A stretch of 64,000 bases of DNA from a virus. Numbering within the stretch: the first letter of the stretch is position 1; every line of letters starts with the position of its first letter. A program made the position numbers and the translations under genes. Shown in pieces: positions 36-14,682 of the stretch. The notes beneath the pieces were generated by a model. The model was not told the origin of the DNA and searched no databases. It saw only the letters and a list, made by a program, of their open reading frames with translations. Location of the stretch: positions 1 to 64,000 of the IMG/VR virus record IMGVR_UViG_3300037520_001276, one strand, 5' to 3'.

Positions 36-67
36 AACACTTGTTTTTATTTGTTTATTTTATTTAG

Positions 68-141
68 TCTAAGTGAGAGGGCTCGAACCTCCGGCCTGAG
101 AGTCCCAAACTCCCCGCTCTACCAAACTGAGCTACACCTAG
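68..141 (-). tRNA. tRNA-Pro(TGG)
   Basis: Cloverleaf CTAGGTG/CACTTAG, D-arm GCTC..GAGC, anticodon loop TT-TGG-GA, T-loop TTCGAGC. Confidence 0.95.
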
Positions 142-151
142 TTATTTTTTT

Positions 152-240
152 TGGAGGAAGCCTGAGGTGTCGATCCCCATACGTGTTTCAGTACCACTAG
201 TTTTCAAGACTATGTTTAGCGCCGGCTAAATTAGACTTCC
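152..240 (-). tRNA. tRNA-Ser(TGA), atypical; can fold 8/4 with a 6-bp D-stem; CCA encoded
   Basis: GGAAGTCT/AGGCTTCC acceptor, TTTAGC-CGGC-GCTAAA D-arm, loop CT-TGA-AA, long variable arm, T-loop ATCGACA, 3' TCCA. Confidence 0.85.
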
Positions 241-248
241 AATTATTG

Positions 249-319
249 TTGTTCCCCAAGGACTCGAACCTCGATTCCACGGACCAAAACCGCGTGTCCT
301 GCCATTAGACGAGGGAACA
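249..319 (-). tRNA. tRNA-Gln(TTG)
   Basis: TGTTCCC/GGGAACA acceptor, CGCGG-TTTTGGT-CCGTG anticodon arm, TTCGAGT T-loop. Confidence 0.95.
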
Positions 320-332
320 TTATAAGGCCAAT

Positions 333-344
333 ATGTCAAAGAAC
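333..344 (-). promoter_or_regulatory. boxA-like antitermination element inside the tRNA operon
   Basis: GTTCTTTGACAT between tRNA-Thr and tRNA-Gln; resembles rrn boxA (GCTCTTTAACA). Confidence 0.55.
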
Positions 345-355
345 TTTTTCTTTTG

Positions 356-428
356 AGGTTTCTATCGGGTTCGAACCGATGACTCCGGGTTACAAAGCCG
401 GGATATTACCAAACTATACTAAGAAACC
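356..428 (-). tRNA. tRNA-Thr(TGT)
   Basis: GGTTTCT/AGAAACC acceptor, loop TT-TGT-AA, TTCGAAC T-loop; C-C mismatch at the base of the anticodon loop. Confidence 0.9.
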
Positions 429-438
429 AATATAAAAC

Positions 439-471
439 AAAAAACCCGAGATTTTTTACGTCTCGGGTTTT
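439..471 (-). terminator. Intrinsic terminator (candidate attenuator) just upstream of the tRNA cluster
   Basis: AAAACCCGAGA-CGTAAAAAA-TCTCGGGTTTT followed by TTGTTTT. Confidence 0.85.
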
Positions 472-501
472 ACATTTCTTTTATTTATTTGTTAAACGTT
501 T

Positions 502-609
502 TTAACTCATAAGTGAAAATACCCTCGACGGTTTAGGCGTAATATAACTAAACGACCACTGATTGTTCGGTTTGTTACAAAGGACCATATGTCTAAGGTT
601 TGTTTTCAT
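502..609 (-). CDS. 35-aa putative leader peptide MKTNLRHMVLCNKPNNQWSFSYITPKPSRVFSLMS
   Basis: Translated by hand; ATG behind two promoter motifs, TAA about 30 nt before the terminator. Confidence 0.6.
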   Translation of the reverse strand: MKTNLRHMVLCNKPNNQWSFSYITPKPSRVFSLMS

Positions 610-616
610 TTTTTGT

Positions 617-624
617 TATAAATA
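617..624 (-). promoter_or_regulatory. Phage TATTTATA motif (putative late promoter)
   Basis: Same motif recurs just upstream of many starts in the window. Confidence 0.6.
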
Positions 625-657
625 TATCGTTATTTCTAAAAGTTTTAATTTACTCTA

Positions 658-688
658 CAAAGATAGGTATTTTTTTCTAATAAACAAG
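658..688 (-). promoter_or_regulatory. Bacteroidetes-type housekeeping promoter (-33 CTTG / -7 TATCTTTG)
   Basis: TATCTTTG at 665-658 matches TAnnTTTG; CTTG 19 nt upstream. Confidence 0.65.
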
Positions 689-693
689 TGTTT

Positions 694-915
694 TTATTTA
701 TTTTTTTTTCTATAAATTTTGGCACTTATACTTTGTTGCCATGTTTTTAGTTGTCTATGTATTTGTTCAAGAGACATACCCTTATCTTCAAAGTCATTTA
801 ATAGTTTTCTCATTTCACTTTCAAAATCACCAGAAAGTTTTGATTCATCTTCATTAATTACTCTTTTAACAATTCTTGTAAGGTCTGATTCTGTTAATCT
901 AACTATTCTTTTCAT
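694..915 (-). CDS. Small protein with shared leader [22 protein letters not shown]
   Basis: ORF track; leader near-identical to 922..1359 and 6759..7547. Confidence 0.85.
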   Translation of the reverse strand: MKRIVRLTESDLTRIVKRVINEDESKLSGDFESEMRKLLNDFEDKGMSLEQIHRQLKTWQQSISAKIYRKKNK

Positions 916-921
916 AATTTT

Positions 922-1359
922 TTATCTTTTAATGTGTGATGGTCTATATTCTTCAGGAAACCCACCATCTTTTTTCTTATCTCTTCTTTTTAAAAAGGAA
1001 ATAACATGATCAATTCCTGATTCAAGTGTGTCTTCAAAAACTCCACTATGTCTTTGAGTGGTTTTAAGTAATACTCTATCTTTTTCATTTTTGGCACTTC
1101 TTGGTTGAACTATACATTGACCTTTATCGTTAACCGTTACTTGTAAGTCTTCCTCATCGTCTCTTTTTATTGTAATAAAATCTAAATTGATTCCTGATAA
1201 TTTTGAATTATGTCCGGCTTTACTTAATTCTCTTTCCAATTTTCTAAGAGGATTTTTTGGCATGTCTTTACTGTGTGACATTTTTGATTTATCCTCTTGG
1301 ATAACTCGTTTAACAATCCTTGTTAAATCTGATTCTGTTAATCTTATTATTTTTTTCAT
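922..1359 (-). CDS. Hypothetical protein with shared leader [22 protein letters not shown]
   Basis: ORF track; TATTTATA upstream. Confidence 0.85.
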   Translation of the reverse strand: MKKIIRLTESDLTRIVKRVIQEDKSKMSHSKDMPKNPLRKLERELSKAGHNSKLSGINLDFITIKRDDEEDLQVTVNDKGQCIVQPRSAKNEKDRVLLKTTQRHSGVFEDTLESGIDHVISFLKRRDKKKDGGFPEEYRPSHIKR

Positions 1360-14295: not shown

Positions 14296-14682
14296 TTAAA
14301 CAATTTCTTTGTAAGTTATTTTTTTAATATATACATCATCATAGTGAGTGTCTACGCCAAAATATTTAATCTCATTTGCTATTATTTTTTTAATTTTGTT
14401 TCTATAATAACCATTACATCTTACTTTATATTTTTCACAGTATCGATTTGTGTAAATATAATAACCACTATCTGATCTCATATCAACAACCACATCAAAT
14501 TCATACAAAAAACTACTACCCCAACCGCTTTTATATTTTCTTACATTAACAATTTTTACAACCGCCTTATCAAGTTCAGAATATGCCGCATTATCTACCT
14601 GTTTTAATTCAAAATTTGATTCTTTCAAAACCGTTTTGATTGCCTTTACTTGTGTGTCTCTGATTGCTTTTCCTTCTTTCAT
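14296..14682 (-). CDS. Hypothetical protein
   Basis: Start moved to MKEGKAIRD, 4 nt after a TATCTTTG promoter element. Confidence 0.75.
   Translation of the reverse strand: MKEGKAIRDTQVKAIKTVLKESNFELKQVDNAAYSELDKAVVKIVNVRKYKSGWGSSFLYEFDVVVDMRSDSGYYIYTNRYCEKYKVRCNGYYRNKIKKIIANEIKYFGVDTHYDDVYIKKITYKEIV

What the first reader, a model, noticed from the sequence alone, without database searches (positions are those of the whole stretch)
68..688. Leader-peptide attenuator apparently gating a phage tRNA operon
Seen on the minus strand: two promoters, a 35-codon ORF (609-502), a strong terminator (471-439), then tRNA-Thr starting about 10 nt later. Codons 27-32 of the ORF (CGUC-GA-GGGU-A-UUUUCA, 530-514) can pair with the terminator 5' arm and loop (UG-U-AAAACCC-GA-GACG, 474-459): CGUC/GACG, a tandem G.A pair, GGGU/ACCC, UUU/AAA, CA/UG. 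This helix excludes the terminator. The ORF uses 16 of 20 amino acids and G-ending codons unexpected in AT-rich DNA (CCG x2, TCG x2, ACG, CAG, AGG), which belong to the Pro/Ser/Thr/Gln/Arg boxes read by the phage tRNAs. Established: leader-peptide attenuation controls amino-acid operons, and host anticodon nucleases deplete tRNAs during infection. Inference: complete translation favours termination, while stalling lets tRNAs be made, so the phage supplies tRNAs on demand. I know of no described attenuator of this kind for phage tRNA arrays.
Basis: partly seen in the sequence, partly recalled or inferred. Interest (0 to 1): 0.88.

Follow-up and report, generated by a model that had tools for sequence, protein, structure and literature searches.

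The report
Leader-ORF attenuator before phage tRNA genes
An uncultured giant lake phage of Bacteroidota places a tiny translated gene and a switchable transcription stop directly in front of its tRNA genes, which probably ties tRNA production to how well ribosomes are translating, a control I could not find described for tRNA genes.

Summary
On the minus strand lie a Bacteroidota-type promoter (687-658), a phage TATTTATA motif (624-617), a 35-codon ORF (609-502), a hairpin terminator (471-441 plus U run) and tRNA-Thr (428-355). There is no room for a promoter between terminator and tRNA.

About 52 IMG/VR contigs carry the same module. The ORF is open in every full-length copy, with indels only in threes, yet the peptide is weakly constrained (pN/pS 0.3-2.0). 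The terminator covaries, and 35 of 35 distinct copies are followed by a tRNA array.

GGG in the last ORF codons pairs with CCC of the terminator 5' arm, but UUUC pairs with GAAA in the conserved linker. This long alternative hairpin forms in 32 of 33 copies. It is weak in one clade.

The strongest support comes from outside the family. In at least 8 unrelated leader-ORF families before boxA-tRNA units, the ORF 3' end carries a 7-11 nt complement of its own terminator arm.

The window peptide uses exactly the 15 amino acids of the tRNAs in its block, plus Met. Function is untested.

The scan has noted this class before on other DNA, including this family. I found no published account.

The parts
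658..687 (-). Host-type (Bacteroidota sigma-A) promoter: TTG 687-685, 19-nt spacer, -7 box TATCTTTG 665-658. Expected start near 653.
   Evidence: Sequence. Conserved in the family alignments. The consensus TAnnTTTG at -12 to -5 comes from passages of PMC9723704.
617..624 (-). Phage-type TATTTATA motif 8 nt before the ATG.
   Evidence: The same 18-mer recurs before the 145-aa gene at 1383-1366. TATTTAT lies 4-19 nt before the ATG of 17 of 72 minus-strand ORFs. TATTTATA occurs 17 times in sense and 6 times in antisense.
502..609 (-). Leader ORF of 35 codons, stop TAA at 504-502.
   Evidence: Open in 33 of 33 aligned copies, while the other two sense frames carry 1-7 stops. 34-36 codons, with indels only in threes. 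pN/pS 0.3-2.0.
591..608 (-). Region 1: UGAAAA (608-603) and CCUUAGAC (598-591). It pairs with region 2 (helix P1) and buries the start codon.
   Evidence: Pairs 57-62/152-157 hold in 100% of cells. Own partners beat swapped partners in both clades (p 0.002 and 0.0095).
553..569 (-). Invariant internal hairpin CGAAC-loop-GGUCG. It holds codons CCG (Pro14), CAG (Gln17) and UCG (Ser19).
   Evidence: RNAalifold pairs 96-112, 97-111, 98-110, 100-108 and 101-107. The stem is nearly invariant and the loop varies.
514..530 (-). Region 2: the last ORF codons CGUCGAGGGUAUUUUCA. This is the 5' strand of the antiterminator and also the 3' strand of P1.
491..506 (-). Hairpin GUUAAA-AACG-UUUAAC enclosing the stop codon. 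It forms the apex of the antiterminator hairpin.
   Evidence: Pair 170-175 reads UA in 21 copies and AU in 9.
459..478 (-). Region 3: conserved linker GAAAU (478-474) plus the terminator 5' arm and first loop bases (ACCC 468-465, GACG 462-459). This is the 3' strand of the antiterminator.
   Evidence: Linker columns 193-210 are conserved in 33 of 33 copies.
434..471 (-). Intrinsic terminator: stem 471-461 / 451-441, 9-nt loop, U run down to 434.
   Evidence: -14.5 kcal/mol. 97.5% of cells paired, with 4 pairs showing compensatory change.
355..428 (-). tRNA-Thr(UGU), first gene of the array, starting 5 nt after the U run.
   Evidence: A tRNA follows in 35 of 35 distinct copies: 33 Thr and 2 Trp.
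328..344 (-). boxA-like element GTTCTTTGACATATTGG, identical to an element in the 16S-23S spacer of Bacteroidota rRNA operons.
67..319 (-). Next tRNAs: Gln(UUG) 319-248, a Ser(UGA)-like tRNA with a long variable arm 240-156, and Pro(UGG) 141-67. The array runs off the contig end and continues in the identical contig L003.

Best explanation
This is a ribosome-mediated (leader-peptide type) transcription attenuator at the head of the phage's first tRNA block.

Transcripts start at the host-type promoter or at the TATTTATA motif. They must pass the terminator at 471-441 to reach tRNA-Thr, the boxA element and the rest of the block.

The last eight ORF codons (region 2) can pair in two ways. They can pair with the start-codon region (region 1, helix P1). 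Or they can pair with the conserved linker and the terminator 5' arm (region 3), forming a long antiterminator hairpin with the stop codon at its apex.

The proposed outcomes are:
- No ribosome: P1 forms and the terminator forms.
- Ribosome reaching the stop codon: region 2 is covered and the terminator forms.
- Ribosome delayed in codons 1 to about 24: region 2 is free and captures region 3 before the 3' arm is made, so RNA polymerase reads on into the tRNAs.

Slow decoding would therefore raise tRNA synthesis.

What is shown: the parts, their conservation, the three competing helices and the recurrence of the design. What is inferred: that the ORF is translated, that ribosome position decides the fold, and that the signal is tRNA supply.
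For: Architecture: promoter, ORF, terminator, then tRNA 5 nt after the U run. The same order holds in 35 of 35 distinct copies from about 52 IMG/VR contigs.

ORF kept for translation rather than for its product:
- Open in 33 of 33 copies. Column shuffles leave it open in the reference in 8.5% of trials and in all 33 copies in 0 of 20000.
- Three indel sites, all of 3 nt.
- Variable columns by codon position are 17/19/21 of 38.
- pN/pS is 0.3-2.0 in 28 pairs.
- It has the same TATTTAT start region as real phage genes.

Switch:
- The terminator is 97.5% paired, with 4 compensatory pairs.
- The antiterminator hairpin is 95.8% paired against 91.2% shuffled, and covariation is 0.221 against 0.138 (0 of 500 shuffles reach it). 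Slid controls stay at or below 0.079. Pair 150-206 reads CG in 24 copies and UA in 9; pair 144-213 reads CG in 14 and UA in 14.
- It is the MFE in 32 of 33 copies when region 1 and the 3' arm are left out, at -7.2 to -16.3 against the terminator's -11.6 to -17.3 kcal/mol.
- L148 changes U145C together with A212G.
- Constraint folds of the window give the antiterminator with a ribosome on codons 1-10 or 12-22, and a free 5' arm with a ribosome at the stop.

Recurrence: 35 distinct terminator contexts before boxA were examined. In 13 modules from 8 peptide families, a 22-37 codon ORF ends -11 to +16 nt from a 7-11 nt exact complement of its own terminator 5' arm, with shuffle p<=0.05 (sequences). 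The arm and its complement change together between families, for example CCAUCUCC/GGAGAUGG against CCAUCUUC/GAAGAUGG.

Matching to the tRNAs:
- The window peptide holds all 15 amino acids of the tRNAs between leader 1 and leader 2 of the identical contig L003, plus Met, and has no Ala, Asp, Glu or Gly. Random peptides do this about once in 1e6.
- Leader 2 (L003 7657-7731) is rich in Leu, Gly, Ala, Glu, Asp and Arg, and precedes tRNAs Leu, Met, Gly, Arg, Glu and Asp.

Rare codons: 7 of 35 codons are NNG codons used at 5-14% within their amino acid.

Read-through: one RNA-library contig (X17, record 16) spans 336-573 across the terminator. This is a weak hint, since DNA carry-over is not excluded.

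Host background: passages of PMC9723704 report strong clues for leader-peptide attenuation before amino-acid operons in a Flavobacterium.
Against: - No experiment bears on this element.
- In the window the drawn helix is matched by 5.25% of shuffles.
- In the 18 copies with the 3-nt insertion, the region 2: region 3 duplex averages -7.0 kcal/mol (L004 -5.1) and is no better with its own partner than with swapped ones (p 0.81).
- The compensatory changes are few and follow the main clade splits. The same 9-versus-24 partition accounts for both 150-206 and 170-175, so they may represent only one or two events.
- There are no runs of one codon, unlike trp or his leaders.
- 14 of 35 peptide positions are invariant in 24 peptides, so a peptide function is not excluded.
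- The start codon is paired in P1 in all copies, which could mean poor translation.
- The rare G-ending codons lie in stems: CCG pairs with UCG, and AGG sits in GGG/CCC.
- Other clades carry Ala31 and sometimes Gly or Asp at codon 28, which breaks the exact amino-acid match.
- One database peptide (P0003) has a frameshifted C-terminus.
- In the same phage, leader 2 is followed by a consensus promoter between terminator and boxA. About half of the outside modules are too. There the terminator cannot be the only gate.
Confidence: 0.55

Rival explanations
1. The element is an unregulated, leaky terminator behind an independent small gene. The 35-codon ORF would encode a small peptide with a job of its own, or none. 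Its terminator would trim a strong promoter to a fixed level of read-through into the tRNAs, and the alternative pairings would have no regulatory role.
For: 14 of 35 peptide positions are invariant. The start region is like that of real genes. The antiterminator is weak, with no co-evolution, in the 18-copy clade. In leader 2 of the same phage and in several outside modules, a promoter sits between terminator and boxA, so those ORF-terminator units look like separate genes.
Against: pN/pS is 0.3-2.0 and variation is equal at all codon positions. A frameshifted variant exists. The linker between stop codon and terminator is conserved and pairs with the ORF end. In 8 unrelated families the ORF end carries a complement of its own terminator arm that changes with it, which a plain gene plus terminator does not need. 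The amino-acid set matches the tRNA block.
Confidence: 0.2
2. The element is a structured non-coding leader (a riboregulator) or a stable small RNA in which the ORF is incidental. The conserved hairpins would bind a protein, a tRNA or a small ligand that sets termination, or the terminated 215-nt RNA would act in trans.
For: Constraint acts at the nucleotide level: synonymous sites are as conserved as the others. The hairpin with AGUGGUCG is invariant. P1 buries the AUG. The whole leader folds better than shuffles (z -2.39).
Against: The frame is open in 33 of 33 copies, against 8.5% for a single shuffled sequence and 0 of 20000 for all copies. All indels are in threes. No Rfam family reaches threshold in 1-1500; the best sub-threshold hits have E 0.3-10, and no T-box was listed. 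Outside families share the ORF and complement geometry but not the structure or sequence.
Confidence: 0.15
3. The hairpin is a true end of transcription, and the tRNAs are made from another start, for example the TATATTGG stretch at 434-427 or a phage polymerase that ignores host terminators.
For: TATATTGG differs from TAnnTTTG at one base. Related modules do have a real -7 box at the homologous place (L172, L243).
Against: A -7 box at 434-427 would put the start near 422, inside tRNA-Thr (box position from PMC9723704 passages). The stretch is not conserved in the family, reading AAAATTTG, AAAATTCG or AAAAATCG. An RNA-library contig bridges the terminator (weak).
Confidence: 0.07

Closest known systems
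Leader-peptide transcription attenuators of amino-acid operons (trpL, hisL, leuL, thrL, ilvL, pheL of enterobacteria). Named from general knowledge. pheL abstract and one passage seen in PMC3082878.
   Same: A short ORF lies between the promoter and the structural genes. An intrinsic terminator follows. A 1:2 / 2:3 / 3:4 set of mutually exclusive helices is present. The antiterminator strand is covered by a ribosome that finishes the ORF.
   Different: The regulated genes are tRNAs, not enzymes. There is no run of one regulatory codon; instead there are one to four codons for each of 15 amino acids. Region 1 includes the start codon. The stop codon sits at the apex of the antiterminator hairpin. 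The setting is a phage, with a host that lacks Shine-Dalgarno sites (abstract of PMC6847099).
Multivalent attenuators (thr leader for Thr and Ile; ilvGMEDA leader for Ile, Leu and Val) and the pheM leader of pheST. Recalled, not read here.
   Same: One leader reports on several amino acids. pheST shows attenuation applied to a gene of the translation apparatus.
   Different: Here up to 15 amino acids are sampled, and the products are the tRNAs themselves.
rrn antitermination boxA (NusB/S10 site). Consensus recalled.
   Same: The 17-mer at 344-328 is identical to an element that lies after the spacer tRNAs and 81-152 nt before 23S rRNA in Pedobacter and Flavihumibacter operons.
   Different: It lies downstream of the leader terminator and of tRNA-Thr. 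It can therefore protect polymerase only after the gate has been passed. Binding was not tested.
T-box riboswitches
   Same: They are leader RNAs that set a terminator/antiterminator choice according to tRNA status.
   Different: No T-box family appeared among the hits in 1-1500 up to E = 10. T-boxes have no ORF and regulate synthetase and amino-acid genes.
Earlier notes of this scan on other phage genomes (136 notes in at least 106 genomes; the same family in e1-5380555, e1-5983138, e1-6049000).
   Same: The layout is the same: promoter, tiny ORF, terminator, boxA, tRNA block. The claim of codon matching is the same, as is the remark that the switch is weak in some copies.
   Different: Those are AI notes on other DNA, not publications. 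Here the design was re-derived from this window and tested on its own relatives.

Membership tests
Ribosome-mediated (leader-peptide) transcription attenuator | A short ORF in the 5' leader, between the promoter and the regulated genes | tested here: met
   ORF 609-502 lies behind the promoter at 687-658. It is open in 33 of 33 copies.
Ribosome-mediated (leader-peptide) transcription attenuator | An intrinsic terminator after the ORF and before the regulated genes, with no promoter in between | tested here: met
   The hairpin 471-441 with its U run covaries. tRNA-Thr starts 5 nt after the U run. The spacer is not conserved and holds no TAnnTTTG box.
Ribosome-mediated (leader-peptide) transcription attenuator | An antiterminator helix that excludes the terminator | tested here: met
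   The hairpin 530-459 is 95.8% paired in the family, with compensatory pairs 150-206 and 144-213. It is the MFE in 32 of 33 copies. It is weak in one clade.
Ribosome-mediated (leader-peptide) transcription attenuator | An anti-antiterminator (1:2) that restores termination without translation | tested here: met
   P1, 608-591 with 530-514.
Ribosome-mediated (leader-peptide) transcription attenuator | The antiterminator strand lies within a ribosome's reach of the stop codon | tested here: met
   GGGUAUUUUC ends 10 nt before UAA. In the outside modules with shuffle p<=0.05, the stop lies -11 to +16 nt from the end of the complement. The footprint size is taken from general knowledge.
Ribosome-mediated (leader-peptide) transcription attenuator | Regulatory codons for the amino acid(s) sensed | tested here: inconclusive
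   There are no tandem runs. The amino-acid set equals that of the tRNA block in the window clade, but other clades add Ala, Gly or Asp. The rare NNG codons also lie in stems.
Ribosome-mediated (leader-peptide) transcription attenuator | Read-through depends on translation of the leader | not testable with these tools
   Only thermodynamic constraint folds and one bridging RNA-library contig are available.
boxA antitermination site | Sequence and position as in host rRNA operons | tested here: met
   The identical 17-mer occurs in at least 120 stretches of genome contigs, most of those listed from Bacteroidota. It lies in the 16S-23S spacer after the tRNAs in L257 and L260.
boxA antitermination site | Binds NusB/S10 and makes polymerase resistant to termination | not testable with these tools
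   None.
T-box riboswitch | Match to the T-box covariance model | tested here: not met
   No T-box hit up to E = 10 in 1-1500.

The most novel reading that the evidence does not exclude
Bacteroidota phages carry a general, unpublished class of 'codon-sampler' leader peptides. Each block of phage tRNA genes would sit behind a mini-ORF spelled in the amino acids of that block. The 3' end of the ORF is the antiterminator of its own terminator. Any shortage of those tRNAs, whether from codon-usage mismatch or from host tRNA-cleaving defences, would stall the ribosome and switch on exactly that block. A host-type boxA would then make the polymerase termination-proof.
Probability: 0.35. Interest if true: 0.9.

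Novelty: new variant of a known kind. Interest (0 to 1): 0.78.

Why it matters
How phages control their own tRNA genes is largely unknown. As far as I know, tRNA genes in general are thought to be regulated at promoters, not by attenuation.

A translation-coupled gate would give a direct feedback from decoding speed to tRNA supply. It would also explain why tRNA arrays in large phages begin with conserved mini-ORFs that gene callers treat as hypothetical proteins.

The module is compact and could be tested in Flavobacterium reporters. It recurs in many uncultured phages. It also suggests a route by which phages could answer tRNA depletion.

The co-opted rRNA-operon boxA adds a second layer, processive antitermination, on a viral stable-RNA operon.

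Tried and rejected
Rfam: nothing at threshold in 430-690. Sub-threshold hits (SpF39, ohsC, L10_leader, His_leader at 17.7 bits against a cut-off of 49) are noise.

Cultured phages: the INPHARED collection matches only the tRNAs, so no cultured relative was found there.

sigma-70 scan: not informative for a Bacteroidota host.

T-box-like reading of the invariant UGGU: dropped. There is no model hit, and there is no link to the discriminator base.

boxA-like reading of the 5' UTR stretch AACUUUUAGAAA: dropped. The similarity is poor, and the window holds only one match to the 17-mer at up to 3 mismatches.

A second antiterminator in clade B: the invariant GGUC could pair with GACC at -9.3 kcal/mol in some copies, but this is not conserved.

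My recollection that E. coli pheV has an attenuator-like leader: I read the 105 nt upstream and found no ORF plus terminator, so I dropped it. Searches gave nothing.

PHROGs on ten large proteins: 3 of 10 had any family (peptidase/endolysin-like, SbcC-like, one structural). Nothing bears on RNA polymerase or tRNA repair.

tRNA-Arg at 9542-9468: it follows a protein gene and has no leader.

Peptide profile search: only three true clusters (34, 36 and 40 aa), so no wider protein family exists. The two longer hits are repetitive and unrelated.

RNA runs: they are contigs only, so they give no ends and no levels. Parts without cover mean nothing.

Literature: searches found no account of leader-peptide attenuation of tRNA genes or of phage tRNA arrays.
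Full report
WHAT IS THERE

The window is the first 64 kb of an 84.4-kb IMG/VR virus contig that CheckV rates 29% complete. Relatives reach 290-304 kb. Near-identical DNA occurs in many lake-water metagenomes.

Read on the minus strand, the 73-aa gene ends at 694. The following parts then come in order:
- a promoter TTG(687-685)-N19-TATCTTTG(665-658);
- a TATTTATA motif (624-617);
- an ATG at 609 opening a 35-codon ORF that stops at 504-502;
- a small hairpin around the stop codon (506-491);
- an A-rich linker;
- a hairpin AAAACCCGAGA / TCTCGGGTTTT (471-441) followed by TTGTTTT;
- tRNA-Thr(UGU) at 428-355, five bases later.

The -7 box consensus TAnnTTTG at -12 to -5 for flavobacterial sigma-A comes from passages of PMC9723704. 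It puts the transcription start near 653.

After tRNA-Thr come the 17-mer GTTCTTTGACATATTGG (344-328), tRNA-Gln, a Ser(UGA)-like tRNA and tRNA-Pro. ARAGORN misses the Ser-like tRNA here; the Rfam tRNA-Sec model scores it 37.6 bits, below its cut-off of 47.

The contig ends there. The identical contig L003 continues the array to 22 tRNAs.

IS IT CONSERVED?

Three pattern scans of IMG/VR, anchored on different parts of the ORF, converge on about 52 contigs. They give 39 distinct sequences, of which 33 are full length (alignment A2).

- All 35 distinct downstream sequences have a tRNA starting 74-90 nt after the ORF-end anchor used for extraction. 33 are Thr(UGU) and 2 are Trp(CCA). Each heads a long array.
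- The ORF is open in every full-length copy at 34-36 codons. All three indel sites are 3 nt long.
- In the 33 aligned copies, frame 0 has only the terminal stop. The other two sense frames have 1-7 stops.
- Shuffling columns leaves the reference open in 8.5% of trials, and all 33 copies open in 0 of 20000. This null is harsh where gaps are present.

Yet the peptide is barely constrained:
- Variable columns number 17, 19 and 21 of 38 at codon positions 1, 2 and 3.
- pN/pS is 0.3-2.0 in 28 pairs of representatives.
- A profile search of 1.8 billion representatives finds only three true clusters. One is a 40-aa form with a frameshifted C-terminus.

An ORF kept open while its product drifts is what a leader peptide looks like. 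14 invariant residues remain, however.

The start region is that of a real gene. The 18-mer with TATTTATA recurs before the 145-aa gene. TATTTAT lies 4-19 nt before the ATG of 17 of 72 minus-strand ORFs.

THE RNA SWITCH

RNAalifold on A2 gives four helices that can coexist:
- P1, UGAAAA at the start codon with UUUUCA near the ORF end;
- an invariant internal hairpin;
- the stop-codon hairpin;
- the terminator.

The terminator is 97.5% paired, with four pairs changed on both sides. P1 is 100% paired in its outer part. Its inner part changes register between clades, and own partners beat swapped ones (p 0.002 and 0.0095).

Two of its pairs are unpaired in 23-24 of 33 copies. In the window it is worth -13.9 kcal/mol against -14.5 for the terminator, and 5.25% of shuffles match it.

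Leaving out region 1 and the 3' arm shows a better-conserved form:
- GGG(524-522) pairs with CCC(467-465).
- The next base pairs U-A or C-G.
- UUUC pairs with GAAA in the linker.
- The stop-codon hairpin sits on top.

32 of 33 copies fold this way. On the alignment it is 95.8% paired. Its covariation score of 0.221 is reached by none of 500 shuffles and by no slid control. This also explains why the linker is conserved.

Constraint folds of the window give the antiterminator when a ribosome is placed on codons 1-10 or 12-22. They give a free terminator arm when the ribosome sits at the stop codon. Without a ribosome the truncated RNA prefers P1. This is the classical 1:2, 2:3, 3:4 logic.

WEAK POINTS

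- In the 18 copies with the 3-nt insertion, the region 2: region 3 duplex averages -7.0 kcal/mol and shows no co-evolution (p 0.81).
- The compensatory pairs follow the deep clade splits. They may therefore be only two or three events, plus the U145C/A212G pair in L148.
- The rare G-ending codons are real: 5-14% usage, 7 of 35 codons. They also sit in stems.
- The RNA evidence is one 238-nt contig of an RNA library that bridges the terminator. It could be DNA carry-over.

SUPPORT FROM OUTSIDE THE FAMILY

The 17-mer after tRNA-Thr is widespread.
- In genome contigs it occurs in at least 120 stretches, most of those listed from Bacteroidota.
- In two rRNA-operon contigs it lies after the spacer tRNAs and 81-152 nt before 23S rRNA. 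That is the place of the spacer boxA in E. coli (recalled).
- In IMG/VR it occurs in more than 114 contigs, most of them unrelated phages, usually just before tRNAs.

I examined 35 distinct contexts in which a terminator precedes it. In 13 modules from 8 different peptide families (sequences):
- a promoter is followed by a 22-37 codon ORF;
- the ORF ends -11 to +16 nt from a 7-11 nt exact complement of its own terminator 5' arm;
- shuffle p is <=0.05.

The complement changes with the arm from family to family. This recurrent, independent design is the best evidence that the ORF end is an antiterminator meant to be covered by a ribosome.

About half of these modules have a consensus promoter between terminator and boxA. 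So does leader 2 of this same phage. In those cases the gate can only add to a basal level.

MATCHING TO THE tRNAs

This was prompted by earlier notes of the scan and tested on L003.
- Leader 1 contains every one of the 15 amino acids carried by the tRNAs between leader 1 and leader 2, plus Met. It has no Ala, Asp, Glu or Gly.
- Peptides drawn from the phage's own composition do this about once in a million.
- Leader 2 (MKNLHIILLGGLAIAEDRSFREVV) precedes tRNAs Leu, Met, Gly, Arg, Glu and Asp.
- The four invariant rare codons ACG, CAG, UCG and CCG are read by the first four tRNAs of the array. I noticed this after the fact.
- Other clades break the exact set, with Ala31 and occasional Gly or Asp.

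VERDICT

The element is real, conserved, and best read as a translation-coupled attenuator of a phage tRNA operon (confidence 0.55). The revised antiterminator is described above.

It works like the trp or his attenuators and meets their structural criteria. Translation dependence and the nature of the signal remain to be shown.

I found no published description (searches; supplements closed). The scan itself has reported the same class, and this very family, on other DNA.

Noticed in passing
window 328-344 (-): GTTCTTTGACATATTGG is identical to an element in the 16S-23S spacer of Bacteroidota rRNA operons, after the spacer tRNAs and 81-152 nt before 23S. It recurs before tRNAs and other structured RNAs in more than 114 IMG/VR contigs. 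It is probably a co-opted boxA antitermination site.
   Followed up: partly
L003 7590-7870 (identical relative, beyond the window's end): A second leader in the same phage. It consists of a promoter, a 24-codon ORF MKNLHIILLGGLAIAEDRSFREVV whose end GGAGGUGG pairs with its terminator arm CCAUCUCC, the terminator, a consensus promoter TTG-N19-TAACTTTG, a boxA with one mismatch, and tRNA-Leu(UAA). Met, Gly, Arg, Glu and Asp tRNAs follow.
   Followed up: partly
window 156-240 (-): A Ser(UGA)-like tRNA with a long variable arm and an encoded CCA. ARAGORN does not call it here. The Rfam tRNA-Sec model gives 37.6 bits (cut-off 47). Relatives have an ARAGORN-called tRNA-Ser(tga) at the same place (L016, L126, L130, L132, L144).
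   Followed up: partly
window, minus strand, e.g. 1366-1383, 7547+, 12497+, 41632+, 62249+: A TATTTAT(A) motif lies 4-19 nt before the start codons of 17 of 72 ORFs (TATTTATA: 17 in sense, 6 in antisense). It is likely a phage-specific promoter that gives very short 5' leaders.
   Followed up: partly
window 694-915, 922-1359 (-); L003 6241-7353; L004 12378-13159: Several otherwise unrelated phage proteins start with the same roughly 20-residue N-terminus, MK(K/R)I(I/V)RLTESDL(T/A)RIVK(R/Q/M)VI.
   Followed up: no
L003 10996-11071; L004 20675-20750: ARAGORN calls a tRNA with a four-letter anticodon (ttaa) at the far end of the array in two relatives. It could be an odd anticodon loop or a UAA-reading tRNA.
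   Followed up: no
L094 (IMG/VR contig of 14520 nt): The leader module is found at both ends in inverted orientation (14425-14462 + and 59-96 -). The contig looks like a fold-back assembly artefact.
   Followed up: no
L150, L156, L161, L163 and others: In many unrelated phage contigs, the boxA 17-mer is flanked by the same conserved structured-looking sequences that are not tRNAs. These may be phage non-coding RNAs transcribed under boxA.
   Followed up: no
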